A stretch of 24,000 nucleotides of DNA. It comes from Candidatus Thorarchaeota archaeon. Its GTDB lineage: Archaea; Asgardarchaeota; Heimdallarchaeia; Hodarchaeales; Hodarchaeaceae. The DNA lies in NCBI GenBank assembly GCA_048882505.1, contig JBHLRO010000030.1:11350-35349 (forward strand), given 5' to 3'. Positions 4,046 through 7,934 of the stretch are shown here, in pieces (positions within the stretch are counted from its first letter, which is position 1; each line of letters starts with the position of its first letter). The translations under genes were made by a program, and so were the position numbers. The notes under the pieces are model-generated. The model was not told the DNA's origin, searched no databases, and was given only the letters and a program-made list of their open reading frames with translations.

Positions 4046-4119
4046 GGGCCGGTGGTCTAGCTCGGTATGACGGCTCCCTCACACGGAGCAGGTCGATGGT
4101 TCAAATCCGTCCCGGCCCA
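4046..4119 (+). tRNA. tRNA-Val (anticodon CAC)
   Basis: Hand-folded cloverleaf:
- Acceptor stem GGGCCGG/CCGGCCC.
- D-arm GTCT/TGAC with one T-T mismatch.
- Anticodon stem GCTCC/GGAGC with loop CTCACAC.
- Variable region AGGTC.
- T-arm GATGG-TTCAAAT-CCGTC.
- Discriminator A.
No encoded CCA and no intron. Confidence 0.9.
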
Positions 4120-7635: not shown

Positions 7636-7675
7636 CGAAAATTTTTAAAGACTCTTAGAACCGCCTTTAATTGAA
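7636..7675 (+). promoter_or_regulatory. Candidate BRE/TATA region for the permuted 5S transcript
   Basis: AT-rich boxes cgaaaatttttaaag (7636-7650) and tttaattgaa (7666-7675) lie 30-70 nt upstream of the first nucleotide of the processing stem (7707). No experimental TSS is available, so this is positional inference only. Confidence 0.25.
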
Positions 7676-7706
7676 TCTAAAGGTACAGAATCTCACGTTG
7701 TATCAT

Positions 7707-7727
7707 GACATCGAGATCCTGCCGGAA
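7707..7727 (+). other. Leader strand of a BHB-like processing stem (GACAU-C-GAG-AUCCUG-CCGG-AA)
   Basis: Pairs with 7877-7892 and 7871-7874:
- GACAU (7707-11) with AUGUC (7888-92).
- GAG (7713-15) with CUC (7885-87).
- AUCCUG (7716-21) with CAGGAU (7878-83).
- CCGG (7722-25) with CCGG (7871-74).
- The 3-nt bulge AAG is at 7726-28. Confidence 0.6.
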
Positions 7728-7876
7728 GTTAAGCCGAGTTTCGTTCTGATCTGTACTGTTATGCGCGAGCTTACGGGAACATCAGAAAACGGGTATTGCC
7801 CGTTCATAGGGCTCGAGTAACACCCGGTCTCATTCCGAAAGATATGAAGGAATTTCTTCATTCCGGGAACCCGGAA
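7728..7876 (+). rRNA. Circularly permuted 5S rRNA-like gene (3' portion, capped helix I, then 5' portion)
   Basis: All canonical 5S elements are present but in rotated order:
- 7728-7741 GUUAAGCCGAGUUU: loop B 3' side and helix II 3' strand.
- 7746-7785 CUGAUCUGUACUGUUAUGCGCGAGCUUACGGGAACAUCAG: helix V, loop E, helix IV, with GCGA as loop D.
- 7788-7793 AACGGG: helix I 3' strand.
- 7794-7798 UAUUG: cap loop.
- 7799-7804 CCCGUU: helix I 5' strand.
- 7805-7808 CAUA: loop A.
- 7809-7817 GGGCUCGAG: helix II 5' strand, pairing with GAGUUU through three G-U and three Watson-Crick pairs.
- 7818-7839 UAACACCCGGUCUCAUUCCGAA: loop B, helix III, loop C.
- 7870-7876 CCCGGAA: helix III 3' strand.
Re-joining 7876 to 7728 gives the archaeal 5S consensus ...ACACCCGGUCUCAUUCCGAA[30 nt]CCCGGAAGUUAAGCC... 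Confidence 0.8.
7840..7869 (+). other. 30-nt insertion in 5S loop C containing a 7-bp hairpin
   Basis: AGAUAUGAAGGAAUUUCUUCAUUCCGGGAA interrupts the otherwise contiguous CAUUCCGAA|CCCGGAAG consensus. The hairpin is AUGAAGG-AAUU-UCUUCAU (7844-7861). CAUUCCG is directly repeated at 7831-7837 and 7859-7865. Confidence 0.6.
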
Positions 7877-7892
7877 ACAGGATCCTCATGTC
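7877..7892 (+). other. Trailer strand of the BHB-like processing stem (A-CAGGAU-C-CUC-AUGUC)
   Basis: Complementary to leader 7707-7721. It is preceded by the 3-nt bulge AAA (7875-7877), which lies on the opposite strand from bulge AAG (7726-7728) across a 4-bp CCGG/CCGG helix. Confidence 0.6.
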
Positions 7893-7926: not shown

Positions 7927-7934
7927 TTGTTTTT
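7927..7934 (+). terminator. Oligo-T archaeal terminator candidate downstream of the 5S transcript
   Basis: TTGTTTTT, with T5 at 7930-7934, lies 38 nt after the end of the processing stem. Archaeal RNA polymerase terminates at T-runs. Confidence 0.35.

What the first reader, a model, noticed from the sequence alone, without database searches (positions are those of the whole stretch)
7831..7869. 30-nt hairpin insertion in 5S loop C bounded by a 7-nt direct repeat
Structure:
- Between CAUUCCGAA (ending at 7839) and CCCGGAAG (from 7870) there are 30 extra nucleotides, AGAUAUGAAGGAAUUUCUUCAUUCCGGGAA.
- They contain a clean hairpin (AUGAAGG/UCUUCAU, loop AAUU).
- CAUUCCG occurs at 7831-7837 and again at 7859-7865, flanking 21 nt. 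This looks like a duplication or slippage footprint, or a target-site duplication.
- GGAAU (7849-7853) can pair alternatively with either AUUCC copy (7832-7836 or 7860-7864), so two mutually exclusive folds exist.

Intron test: I checked every excision register permitted by the repeats for a canonical BHB (3-nt bulge, 4 bp, 3-nt bulge) and found none. It therefore does not look like a standard archaeal intron. Only a single AAA bulge (7838-7840) next to a UUCCG/CGGGAA helix is present.

Loop C contacts uL5/uL18 and the 23S A-site finger region, so a retained expansion there would be remarkable.
Basis: seen in the sequence. Interest (0 to 1): 0.6.

Follow-up and report, generated by a model that had tools for sequence, protein, structure and literature searches.

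The report
Mini-intron in a back-to-front 5S gene
The 30 extra bases are real, but they sit in a 5S ribosomal RNA gene that this Asgard (Heimdall-group) archaeon encodes back half first, and they look like a tiny tRNA-type intron that is cut out while the transcript is cut and rejoined (probably into a ring) to make a normal 5S RNA.

Summary
The 30-nt insert (7840-7869), its hairpin and the 7-nt repeat are all real. The 5S 3' half lies upstream (7728-7787), helix I is closed by a small loop (7788-7804), and the 5' half follows (7805-7839). So the gene is circularly permuted. Leader and trailer form a covarying stem plus a 4-bp helix and two 3-nt bulges. Cutting by the archaeal splicing rule rejoins ...CCCGGAA|GUUAAGCC..., the canonical 5S sequence.

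This is the genome's only 5S. The same layout occurs in every Heimdallarchaeial genome sampled and in about 20 other Asgard families. Canonical 5S occurs only in six other families.

The insert fits the same rule: H' is UCCG/CGGG, the bulges are AAA and AAC, and the cuts give CCGAA|CCCGG exactly. Seventeen further sequences from a distant Asgard family carry a 30-nt insert at the same site with the same boundaries but unrelated hairpins, and the inner helix covaries. The genome encodes an (alpha-beta)2-type endonuclease and RtcB.

My best reading is a relaxed-BHB mini-intron (about 0.7). A retained expansion is not excluded, and I have no RNA data. I found no paper describing this. This scan had already noted permuted, intron-bearing 5S genes on this stretch and in Loki-type genomes.

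The parts
7642..7649 (+). TATA-like box (TTTTTAAA), a candidate archaeal promoter about 60 nt upstream of the processing stem
   Evidence: Read directly from the sequence. Similar A/T boxes lie upstream in relatives. This is inference only and was not tested.
7708..7721 (+). Leader strand of the processing stem (ACAUCGAGAUCCUG)
   Evidence: It pairs with 7878-7891. For the 7 pairs next to H, 6 of 7 show compensatory changes across 25 loci. The stem is present in the precursor MFE.
7722..7725 (+). 5' strand of the terminal 4-bp helix H (CCGG)
   Evidence: It pairs with 7871-7874. Across the phylum, H appears as CCGG/CCGG, CUGG/CCAG, CAGG/CCUG, CCGC/GCGG and CGUG/CACG.
7726..7728 (+). Terminal bulge B1 (AAG), with the predicted cut at 7727|7728
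   Evidence: Geometry plus the rule 'cut after the second bulge nucleotide'. The resulting join gives the canonical CCCGGAA|GUUAAGCC.
7728..7787 (+). 5S rRNA 3' half: loop B 3' side, helix II 3' strand, and helices V and IV
   Evidence: This is the only Rfam 5S signal, at 20.3 bits. Helices II, IV and V are 92-94% paired with compensatory changes.
7788..7804 (+). Helix I closed by a short loop (AACGGG-UAUUG-CCCGUU), joining what are normally the 3' and 5' ends of 5S
   Evidence: Helix I is 99% paired across 25 loci. In other families it is capped by UUCG or UACG tetraloops.
7805..7839 (+). 5S rRNA 5' half: loop A, helix II 5' strand, loop B, helix III 5' strand, and loop C up to ...CCGAA
   Evidence: Alignment A1. 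After rejoining, the sequence is colinear with canonical Asgard 5S.
7834..7837 (+). Intron motif H', 5' strand (UCCG, exon side)
   Evidence: It pairs with 7864-7867. This pairing holds in 19 of 19 distinct insert-bearing sequences.
7838..7840 (+). Intron bulge B1' (AAA), with the predicted 5' splice cut at 7839|7840
   Evidence: A true 3-nt bulge between H' and h'. It is present in the MFE of the unspliced circle.
7840..7869 (+). The 30-nt insert, a putative relaxed-BHB mini-intron. It comprises inner helix h' (7841-7842 with 7862-7863, and 7844-7850 with 7855-7861), loop 7851-7854, and the H' 3' strand at 7864-7867.
   Evidence: Among about 22 same-genus loci it is absent from all but the window's own. 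It is kept in L047, a genome 89% identical, with one substitution in the hairpin loop. Inserts of 30 nt (one of 31 nt) occur at the same site in family f14, and 8 of 9 h' pairs there show compensatory changes.
7868..7870 (+). Intron 3' bulge/loop B2' (AAC), with the predicted 3' splice cut at 7869|7870
   Evidence: These 3 nt lie between H' and helix III and face 5-6 unpaired nt (7828-7833), so this is an internal loop and not a clean bulge. ...CGGGAA|C is invariant in 19 of 19 sequences.
7870..7876 (+). 7-nt second exon (CCCGGAA). It includes the helix III 3' strand at 7871-7874, which doubles as the 3' strand of terminal helix H.
   Evidence: Helix III is 100% paired with 3 of 4 pairs compensatory. 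The same 7-nt arrangement is seen in all loop C insert-bearing genes.
7875..7877 (+). Terminal bulge B2 (AAA), with the predicted cut at 7876|7877
   Evidence: A clean 3-nt bulge between H and the trailer stem. In relatives B2 is mostly AAA, with GAA, AAU, AAG and GAU as variants.
7878..7891 (+). Trailer strand of the processing stem (CAGGAUCCUCAUGU)
   Evidence: It pairs with 7708-7721 and covaries with it.
7930..7934 (+). Oligo-T run, a candidate archaeal terminator
   Evidence: Read from the sequence. T-runs follow the trailer in relatives too. Inference only.

Best explanation
Window 7708-7891 is the genome's single 5S rRNA gene. It is encoded in circularly permuted order: 3' half, then helix I closed by a loop, then 5' half.

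Proposed maturation of the gene:
- Leader and trailer pair into a stem that presents a bulge-helix-bulge-type motif: H (7722-7725 with 7871-7874), B1 (AAG) and B2 (AAA).
- The archaeal splicing endonuclease cuts at 7727|7728 and 7876|7877.
- RtcB joins A7876 to G7728. This recreates the universal ...CCCGG-AA-GUUAAGCC... segment at the conserved AA bulge of helix III.
- The product is most likely a covalently closed circular 5S. A nicked, base-paired form is also possible.

Proposed fate of the finding's 30 nt (7840-7869):
- They are a mini-intron of the same enzymatic type, splitting the conserved loop C motif CCGAA|C.
- H' (UCCG/CGGG) is flanked by the AAA bulge and inner helix h' on one side, and by AAC plus helix III on the other.
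- Cuts at 7839|7840 and 7869|7870, followed by ligation, give a 119-nt 5S with a canonical loop C.
- The second exon is only 7 nt long, so I infer an order of events: circularisation first, which frees CCGG 7871-7874 to form helix III, and intron removal second.

Shown here: the gene order, the folds, their covariation, the exact restoration of the sequence in silico, the enzymes' genes, and the distribution.

Inferred: that cleavage and ligation actually happen, that the product is circular, and the order of events.
For: Permuted gene:
- The sequence itself.
- The only 5S-like signal in the 94.5%-complete genome is here, at 20.3 bits.
- The permuted-gene model R1 scores 134 bits at this locus, and it is the only hit in the genome.
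- In the mature fold, 95.5% of cells are paired and 25 of 35 pairs are compensatory, against 28-54% paired in slid controls.
- The rejoined sequence is colinear with canonical Asgard 5S at 55-68% identity, and its circular MFE is the 5S fold.

Terminal motif:
- 6 of 7 flank-helix pairs are compensatory.
- H covaries across lineages, and its register relative to helix III shifts by 1 nt in some. Even so, cutting after the second bulge nucleotide always yields helixIII-AA-GUYAAG.

Intron:
- The geometry and the exact junction.
- Shuffled inserts give H' plus the adjacent h' pairs in 0.2% of trials, and 0.02% if the terminal AA is also required.
- 19 distinct sequences from two Asgard classes carry a 30-nt insert at the same site. 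H' is paired in 19/19, the two h' pairs next to the bulge in 19/19 and 18/19, and 8 of 9 h' pairs are compensatory, while the hairpin sequences are unrelated.
- Presence is sporadic among close relatives.
- In f14 there are further ~30-nt inserts at three other sites of the gene (helix IV, the helix I loop, and near helix II). The one helix IV insert I worked through by hand (L113) forms a canonical hBHBh' motif.
- The insert is retained in a species only 89% identical, with a single change, in the loop.

Enzymes:
- An alpha-like and a beta-like EndA subunit.
- The alpha subunit is closest to the A. pernix (alpha-beta)2 catalytic subunit.
- RtcB is present.
- (alpha-beta)2 enzymes cleave relaxed motifs (PMC4731332, PMC5829648).
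Against: - There is no RNA evidence. Scans of metagenome contigs for further insert-bearing copies and for the rejoined junction both returned nothing.
- The 3' splice site is not a clean bulge: 3 nt face 5-6 nt.
- H' does not vary, so it is conserved but not shown by covariation.
- In the linear precursor, four palindromic CCGG elements compete. The MFE contains neither H nor H', and the fold with both motifs enforced is 5 kcal/mol less stable.
- A 7-nt exon is awkward for ligation unless the order of events is controlled.
- Retained loop C expansions exist in bacteria (PMC7812874).
- Not all (alpha-beta)2 endonucleases have broad specificity (PMC5829648).
Confidence: 0.7

Rival explanations
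1. Retained expansion segment. The permuted 5S is processed and rejoined as above, but the 30-nt hairpin stays in the mature RNA as a small loop C expansion projecting from the central protuberance.
For: - The insert is a stable, self-contained hairpin that does not disturb the rest of the 5S fold in the unspliced-circle MFE.
- Retained 5S expansions are documented in Halococcus and Thermoanaerobacterium, and loop C is a permissive region in bacteria (PMC7812874, PMC7530397).
- The 3' boundary is not a clean bulge.
- Retention avoids the 7-nt exon problem.
- The uniform length of 30 nt across lineages could reflect a structural constraint in the ribosome.
Against: - The boundaries obey the splicing-endonuclease rule and restore the invariant CCGAAC motif exactly.
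- ...CGGGAA| is invariant in 19 of 19 sequences while the hairpin body is free to change. That is what a cleavage motif predicts, not a solvent-exposed arm.
- The insert splits the conserved CCGAA|C, not the permissive positions 34-37 named in PMC7812874.
- Inserts of similar size sit at other core sites, including helix IV, in the same gene family, and presence is sporadic between sister species.
Confidence: 0.2
2. Recent neutral duplication or hairpin-forming replication slip in a decaying or dispensable 5S copy, that is, a pseudogene.
For: - The 7-nt direct repeat CAUUCCG. The intron's 3' end (UCUUCAUUCCGGGAA) also resembles the upstream exon end (UCUCAUUCCGAA).
- Some f14 inserts contain duplicated exon sequence too.
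Against: - It is the only 5S gene in the genome under both models.
- Every helix and the processing stem are intact.
- The insert is conserved in a second species at 89% genome identity, with 1 change in 30 nt where about 3 would be expected from the overall 11% divergence of the flanks.
- A duplication footprint can explain how the intron arose without making the gene a pseudogene.
Confidence: 0.04
3. Assembly artefact or chimeric contig that created both the apparent permutation and the insert.
For: The genome is a metagenome-assembled draft of 83 contigs.
Against: - The same permuted layout is found in closed single-contig genomes and in dozens of independent assemblies.
- The insert is present in an independent MAG, L047.
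Confidence: 0.01

Closest known systems
Permuted, circularised SRP RNA gene of Thermoproteus tenax and T. uzoniensis (Plagens et al. 2015, eLife, PMC4731332)
   Same: - A universal structured RNA is encoded in permuted order.
- Leader and trailer fold into a BHB motif.
- A heterotetrameric splicing endonuclease and RtcB are proposed, and for SRP RNA shown, to cut and circularise it, restoring a functional loop.
- Standard gene finders miss the gene.
   Different: - The RNA here is 5S rRNA, not SRP RNA.
- The layout is found across most sampled Asgard families, not just two species.
- The gene additionally carries an intron 7 nt from the junction.
- Circularity here is inferred and not demonstrated.
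Circularly permuted tRNA genes (Cyanidioschyzon merolae; also archaeal Thermofilum).
   Same: The 3' half precedes the 5' half, the native ends are joined by a short linker, and the gene is expressed through BHB-type cleavage and a circular intermediate.
   Different: In tRNAs the circle is reopened at the native ends. Here helix I is capped by stable UNCG-type tetraloops in many lineages, which argues against reopening at that point.
Permuted mitochondrial 5S rRNAs (Valach et al. 2014, NAR, PMC4267664)
   Same: A 5S rRNA whose gene order is circularly permuted. This is the only earlier report of 'permuted 5S' that I found.
   Different: Those are organellar, not archaeal chromosomal, genes. 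I read only the title and abstract of that paper, so the further differences are my own expectation and were not checked: no BHB motif, no link to the splicing endonuclease, and no introns.
Archaeal BHB introns in tRNA and 16S/23S rRNA genes, and circular pre-16S/23S intermediates
   Same: A 4-bp helix flanked by 3-nt bulges, cleavage by EndA, ligation by RtcB, and tolerance of relaxed motifs by (alpha-beta)2 enzymes (PMC4731332, PMC5829648).
   Different: I found no report of a BHB intron in a 5S rRNA gene. Recent work states that circularisation applies to 16S and 23S 'but not 5S rRNAs' (PMC12918454). The motif here is of the relaxed (HBh') type.
5S rRNA expansion segments (Halococcus morrhuae 108-nt insert; Thermoanaerobacterium; Stepanov & Fox 2021, PMC7812874; PMC7530397)
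   Same: Extra helical modules inside a prokaryotic 5S gene, some of them in loop C.
   Different: Those inserts are retained in the mature RNA, lie at other positions (34-37, 52-53 and elsewhere), and are not bounded by a splicing motif that restores the canonical sequence.

Membership tests
5S rRNA (Rfam RF00001) | Linear match to the family model at or above the 38-bit gathering score | tested here: not met
   The score is 20.3 bits and covers the 3' half only. The failure is explained by the permuted gene order.
5S rRNA (Rfam RF00001) | Helices I-V, loops A-E and the conserved loop C / helix III / loop B sequence once the transcript is put in canonical order | tested here: met
   95.5% of cells are paired and 25 of 35 pairs are compensatory. 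The rejoined sequence aligns colinearly with canonical Asgard 5S at 55-68% identity and folds as 5S.
Permuted RNA genes matured by BHB cleavage and ligation (tRNA, SRP RNA) | 3' half upstream of 5' half, with the native termini joined by a short linker | tested here: met
   Helix I is closed by a 5-nt loop at 7794-7798.
Permuted RNA genes matured by BHB cleavage and ligation (tRNA, SRP RNA) | Leader and trailer form a stem with a 4-bp helix and at least one 3-nt bulge, and the predicted cuts regenerate the native sequence | tested here: met
   The flank helix has 6 of 7 pairs compensatory. H covaries. B2 is a clean AAA bulge, while B1 is followed by no helix, so the motif is of the hBH type. 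The join gives CCCGGAA|GUUAAGCC.
Permuted RNA genes matured by BHB cleavage and ligation (tRNA, SRP RNA) | RNA molecules carrying the ligated junction (a circular or rejoined form) | not testable with these tools
   The one possible test, a scan of metagenome contigs for the rejoined junction of this lineage, returned nothing. This is uninformative.
Archaeal BHB intron (hBHBh' or relaxed HBh'/hBH) | Central 4-bp helix | tested here: met
   7834-7837 (UCCG) pairs with 7864-7867 (CGGG). This pairing holds in 19 of 19 sequences.
Archaeal BHB intron (hBHBh' or relaxed HBh'/hBH) | Two 3-nt bulges on opposite strands, each flanked by a helix | tested here: inconclusive
   The 5' site meets the definition: the AAA bulge lies between H' and h'. 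The 3' site does not fully meet it: AAC lies between H' and helix III but faces 5-6 unpaired nt. The strict hBHBh' form is therefore not met. The relaxed definition in PMC4731332 ('at least one' bulge) is met.
Archaeal BHB intron (hBHBh' or relaxed HBh'/hBH) | Cleavage after the second bulge nucleotide removes the insert and restores a functional sequence | tested here: met
   The cuts give CCGAA|CCCGG, identical to all insert-free relatives.
Archaeal BHB intron (hBHBh' or relaxed HBh'/hBH) | The host encodes an endonuclease able to cut relaxed motifs, plus an RtcB ligase | tested here: met
   The genes for alpha-like and beta-like EndA subunits and for RtcB are present. The alpha subunit is closest to A. 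pernix (alpha-beta)2. Actual substrate range was not tested.
Archaeal BHB intron (hBHBh' or relaxed HBh'/hBH) | Excision demonstrated in RNA | not testable with these tools
   No transcript data are available for this lineage.
Prokaryotic 5S expansion segments | The insert lies at one of the documented permissive sites (for example loop C 34-37 or the helix III bulge 52-53) | tested here: not met
   The insert splits CCGAA|C on the 3' side of loop C, roughly E. coli A46/C47 by my own numbering. The permissive sites are quoted from PMC7812874.
Prokaryotic 5S expansion segments | The insert is retained in mature ribosomal 5S RNA | not testable with these tools
   No RNA data.

The most novel reading that the evidence does not exclude
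Most Asgard archaea, including the whole Heimdall/Hodarchaeales group considered closest to eukaryotes, build their ribosomes with a covalently circular 5S rRNA. It is made from a back-to-front gene by the tRNA-splicing machinery. In some lineages this gene is further interrupted by ~30-nt mini-introns, up to two per gene, whose removal must be ordered relative to circularisation because one exon is only 7 nt long. These would be the first circular 5S rRNA and the first 5S rRNA introns, and they would explain the 'missing 5S' of closed Heimdallarchaeum genomes.
Probability: 0.5. Interest if true: 0.9.

Novelty: new variant of a known kind. Interest (0 to 1): 0.85.

Why it matters
- **Annotation.** 5S rRNA is treated as a universally easy-to-find gene, yet it 'could not be predicted' in closed Heimdallarchaeum genomes (PMC8813620). 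A permuted gene explains that gap. It also means rRNA annotation and MAG quality criteria that require a 5S systematically fail for most Asgard lineages.
- **Mechanism.** It would extend splicing-endonuclease/RtcB maturation to the one rRNA currently thought to be exempt from it (PMC12918454). It would also add 5S to the very short list of essential RNAs that work only after being cut and rejoined.
- **The 30-nt element.** It would be the first intron described in a 5S gene. Together with the 7-nt exon, it gives a compact natural test case for how two adjacent BHB motifs are processed in order.
- **Evolution.** The trait splits Asgard families cleanly, so it is also a rare-genomic-change marker for Asgard phylogeny near the origin of eukaryotes.

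Tried and rejected
Rejected: 7870 onward is CCCGGAAACAGGAUCC..., the trailer stem.
- **A second, canonical 5S elsewhere in the genome.** None found.
- **Canonical 5S in relatives.** The only two hits above cut-off (L002, L003) lie next to bacterial 23S rRNA on small contigs, so they are contamination. The marginal 38-bit Rfam hit in G136 overlaps a permuted gene.
- **The insert as a multicopy mobile element or shared tRNA intron.** blastn-short of the 30 nt against the whole genome finds only the insert itself.
- **More insert-bearing copies of the window-type gene in metagenomes.** 0 hits.
- **The rejoined junction (5' half-CCCGGAA-GUUAAG-helix II strand) in metagenome or metatranscriptome contigs.** 0 hits. 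This is uninformative, not negative.
- **Thermodynamic support from the linear precursor.** The MFE keeps the flank stem but pairs the CCGG elements differently. The double-BHB fold is 5 kcal/mol higher, so I do not use the MFE of the precursor as evidence.
- **A blind script for the BHB rule.** 51 distinct loci have a geometry that regenerates the canonical junction, but the script preferred such solutions. It also failed on f3 (extra leader hairpin) and on f14 genes with short flank stems. I therefore report it as an existence count only.
- **Literature.** Searches for permuted or circular 5S in archaea or Asgard found nothing relevant.
Full report
**1. Observation**

The 30 nt AGAUAUGAAGGAAUUUCUUCAUUCCGGGAA lie at 7840-7869, between ...CAUUCCGAA and CCCGG. 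The hairpin (7844-7850 with 7855-7861, loop AAUU) and the 7-nt repeat CAUUCCG (7831-7837 and 7859-7865) are present. A repeat of that length arises in 4.6% of shuffles of the local 61 nt.

- The sequence from 7870 is CCCGGAAA, not CCCGGAAG.
- It runs into CAGGAUCCUCAUGU..., not into a 5S 3' half.

**2. What the locus is**

Rfam finds no 5S above threshold anywhere in the window. A permissive scan gives one 20.3-bit hit at 7694-7794, which matches only the 3' half. This is the only 5S-like signal in the whole 4.3-Mb, 94.5%-complete genome.

Reading the sequence gives this order:
- GUUAAGCC..., with the helix II 3' strand and helices V and IV (7728-7787);
- a hairpin AACGGG-UAUUG-CCCGUU that closes helix I (7788-7804);
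- CAUAGGGCUCGAGUAACACCCGGUCUCAUUCCGAA (7805-7839);
- the insert;
- CCCGGAA (7870-7876).

The gene is therefore circularly permuted, with its ends in helix III.

Supporting tests:
- On an alignment of 25 distinct loci from four families of the class (A1), the 5S fold has 95.5% of cells paired and 25 of 35 pairs with compensatory changes. Slid controls give 28-54% paired.
- Rejoined and rotated, the window's sequence aligns colinearly with canonical 5S genes of other Asgard families at 55-68% identity.
- As a circle, its MFE is the 5S fold.

**3. Processing motif at the ends**

The leader (7708-7721) pairs with the trailer (7878-7891). For the seven pairs next to H, 6 of 7 show compensatory changes.

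Inside that stem:
- CCGG 7722-7725 pairs with CCGG 7871-7874 (helix H).
- On the 3' strand, H is followed by a clean AAA bulge (7875-7877).
- On the 5' strand, H is followed by AAG (7726-7728).

This is the h-H-B arrangement of an archaeal bulge-helix-bulge motif. Plagens et al. define it as a 4-bp helix flanked by at least one 3-nt bulge (PMC4731332). Cutting after the second bulge nucleotide gives ...CCCGGAA + GUUAAGCC..., the universal 5S sequence. The join falls at the conserved AA bulge of helix III.

H changes in a complementary way between lineages: CUGG/CCAG in L023, CAGG/CCUG in family f3, CCGC/GCGG in G136, and CGUG/CACG in f8, f10 and f12. In some of these lineages H is shifted by one nucleotide relative to helix III, and the bulges change (AAA and GAA). 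The same cutting rule still regenerates helixIII-AA-GUYAAG. That is hard to explain unless the motif is read by the splicing endonuclease.

In many families helix I is capped by UUCG or UACG tetraloops. This argues that helix I is not reopened. The mature RNA is then either a closed circle or a molecule nicked in helix III.

**4. Distribution**

- Named records show the organism is a Heimdallarchaeia/Hodarchaeales Asgard archaeon.
- None of 41 genomes of its class has a genuine canonical 5S. The two hits above cut-off sit beside bacterial 23S rRNA.
- A covariance model of the permuted gene (R1) finds full-length matches of 74-164 bits across the class (f1 and f3-f7, except one f6 genome at 58 bits) and 52-121 bits in f8-f10, f12-f14, f18, f19 and f21-f26. 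These counts exclude the ~30-nt-longer f14 genes, which score 40-52 bits. Its weak hits in other families are canonical genes.
- The Rfam model finds canonical 5S in f11 (25 of 26), f17 (17 of 19), f20, f15, f27 and f28, and in none of the permuted families. The one apparent exception, a marginal 38-bit hit in f7 (G136), overlaps a permuted gene.
- Wu et al. wrote that 5S 'could not be predicted' in closed Heimdallarchaeum genomes (PMC8813620). A 2026 study states that circularisation concerns 16S and 23S 'but not 5S' (PMC12918454).
- Full-text searches found permuted 5S only in organelles.

**5. The 30-nt insert**

The insert is absent from about 21 other same-genus loci. It is present, with one substitution in the hairpin loop, in L047, a MAG that is 89.2% identical over 6.8 kb and therefore a different species.

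Its boundaries fit the same enzymatic rule:

| Element | Window coordinates |
|---|---|
| H' | UCCG 7834-7837 with CGGG 7864-7867 |
| B1' | AAA 7838-7840, a true bulge |
| h' | starts at G7841-C7863 |
| B2' | AAC 7868-7870, followed by helix III |

The cuts at 7839|7840 and 7869|7870 give CCGAA|CCCGG, identical to every insert-free relative. The 3' site faces 5-6 unpaired nucleotides, so the motif is of the relaxed (HBh') kind. Shuffled inserts reproduce H' plus two adjacent h' pairs in 0.2% of trials, and in 0.02% if the terminal AA is also required.

The strongest evidence is comparative:
- In family f14, which belongs to another class, many permuted 5S genes are 30 or 60 nt longer than the model.
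- 17 further distinct sequences carry a 30-nt insert (one of 31 nt was left out of A3) at exactly this site. All are bounded by ...UCCGAA| and ...CGGGAA|CCC, with unrelated hairpin sequences.
- On the joint alignment, H' is paired in 19 of 19 sequences. The two h' pairs next to the bulge are paired in 19/19 and 18/19, using four pair types. 8 of 9 h' pairs have compensatory changes. Slid controls fall to 18-58%.
- f14 also has ~30-nt inserts in helix IV, in the helix I loop and near helix II, sometimes two per gene. One of the helix IV inserts that I worked through by hand (L113) forms a canonical hBHBh' motif.

Sporadic presence, several core sites, fixed boundaries and free interiors are the signature of splicing-endonuclease introns.

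The genome encodes an alpha-like (182 aa) and a beta-like (213 aa) EndA subunit and RtcB. The alpha subunit is most similar to the catalytic subunit of the Aeropyrum pernix (alpha-beta)2 enzyme and aligns without gaps through its loop region. Enzymes of this type cut relaxed motifs (PMC4731332, PMC5829648), though not all of them do (PMC5829648).

**6. Order of events (inference)**

If all four sites were cut at once, the exon 7870-7876 would be a free 7-mer. The CCGG at 7871-7874 can pair with either the leader CCGG (helix H) or helix III, but not with both. In the MFE of the unspliced circle, helix III, H', the AAA bulge and h' all form. I therefore propose circularisation first and intron removal second.

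The linear precursor's MFE contains neither H nor H', and the fold with both enforced is 5 kcal/mol higher. Thermodynamics alone therefore does not settle this.

**7. Rivals**

- **Retained expansion.** This remains possible. Loop C carries retained expansions in some bacteria, but at positions 34-37 and not inside CCGAA|C (PMC7812874).
- **Pseudogene.** Contradicted by the gene's uniqueness in the genome, by its intact helices, and by conservation of the insert.
- **Assembly artefact.** Contradicted by independent assemblies, including closed genomes.

**8. Limits**

- There is no RNA evidence. Two metagenome scans, one for more insert-bearing copies and one for the rejoined junction, returned nothing.
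- H' is invariant, so it is conserved but not shown by covariation.
- The other Asgard families could not be named.

**9. Earlier notes of this scan**

First-stage notes on this same stretch, and follow-up reports on Loki-type genomes, describe permuted, BHB-flanked, intron-bearing 5S genes. I reached the permuted-gene reading before consulting them. One of these notes pointed me to the Plagens paper. Another prompted the junction scan.

Noticed in passing
L093, L110-L113, L115, L123, L135, L139 (family f14 loci): Inserts of about 30 nt in helix IV of permuted 5S genes. In L113, the insert between GUUGCGA and UCAGUGGG has H = UUGC/GCAG, bulges GAU and AAU, and helices on both sides, which is a canonical hBHBh' motif. 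L135 and L139 carry this insert together with the loop C insert, so they have two introns.
   Followed up: partly
L090, L116, L118, L127 (helix I loop) and L141 (just after GUUAAAC, near the helix II 3' strand): Further ~30-nt inserts at two more sites of the f14 permuted 5S gene. Those in the helix I capping loop could simply be retained extensions.
   Followed up: no
L117 (G246:C1:82283-82526): A different loop C insert, placed after CCCAU, that contains a duplicate of the upstream GGAUAAUACCCGGUCCC segment. This looks like a local duplication and may show how such inserts arise.
   Followed up: no
L004, L005, L025-L027, L029 (family f3, Heimdallarchaeum group): Between the leader stem and H there is an extra ~30-nt hairpin (for example UCUGGAUGUGUUCCAGAAAC) that resembles helix III / loop C followed by GAAAC. 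It may be a relic of the tandem duplication that produced the permuted order.
   Followed up: no
G028:C1 and G038:C1 (two closed ~3.1-3.3 Mb genomes): Each has two full-length permuted 5S genes about 350 kb apart, whereas the window's genome has one.
   Followed up: no
G136 contigs C77, C90, C106, C132: The permuted 5S gene lies at the ends of four small contigs in this draft genome. That suggests a repeated locus that broke the assembly.
   Followed up: partly
L002 (G023:C798) and L003 (G005:C310): Small contigs with bacterial 23S and 5S rRNA inside Heimdallarchaeial MAGs. This is bacterial contamination that could be mistaken for the archaeon's 5S.
   Followed up: yes
Whole genome G000 (ARAGORN run): Many tRNA genes are predicted with introns, some at non-canonical positions and a few with implausibly long introns (700-1800 nt). 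This fits a lineage with heavy use of the splicing endonuclease, but the ARAGORN intron calls were not checked.
   Followed up: no
window 4046-4119: A tRNA-Val(CAC) gene with 65% G+C lies 3.6 kb upstream. The 5S gene stands alone and is not next to 16S or 23S rRNA.
   Followed up: no
window 7875-7876 with 7728: The permutation breakpoint coincides with the universally conserved AA bulge of helix III. Stepanov & Fox (PMC7812874) list this bulge among the least obstructed sites of 5S in the ribosome, so even an unligated nick there might be tolerated.
   Followed up: no
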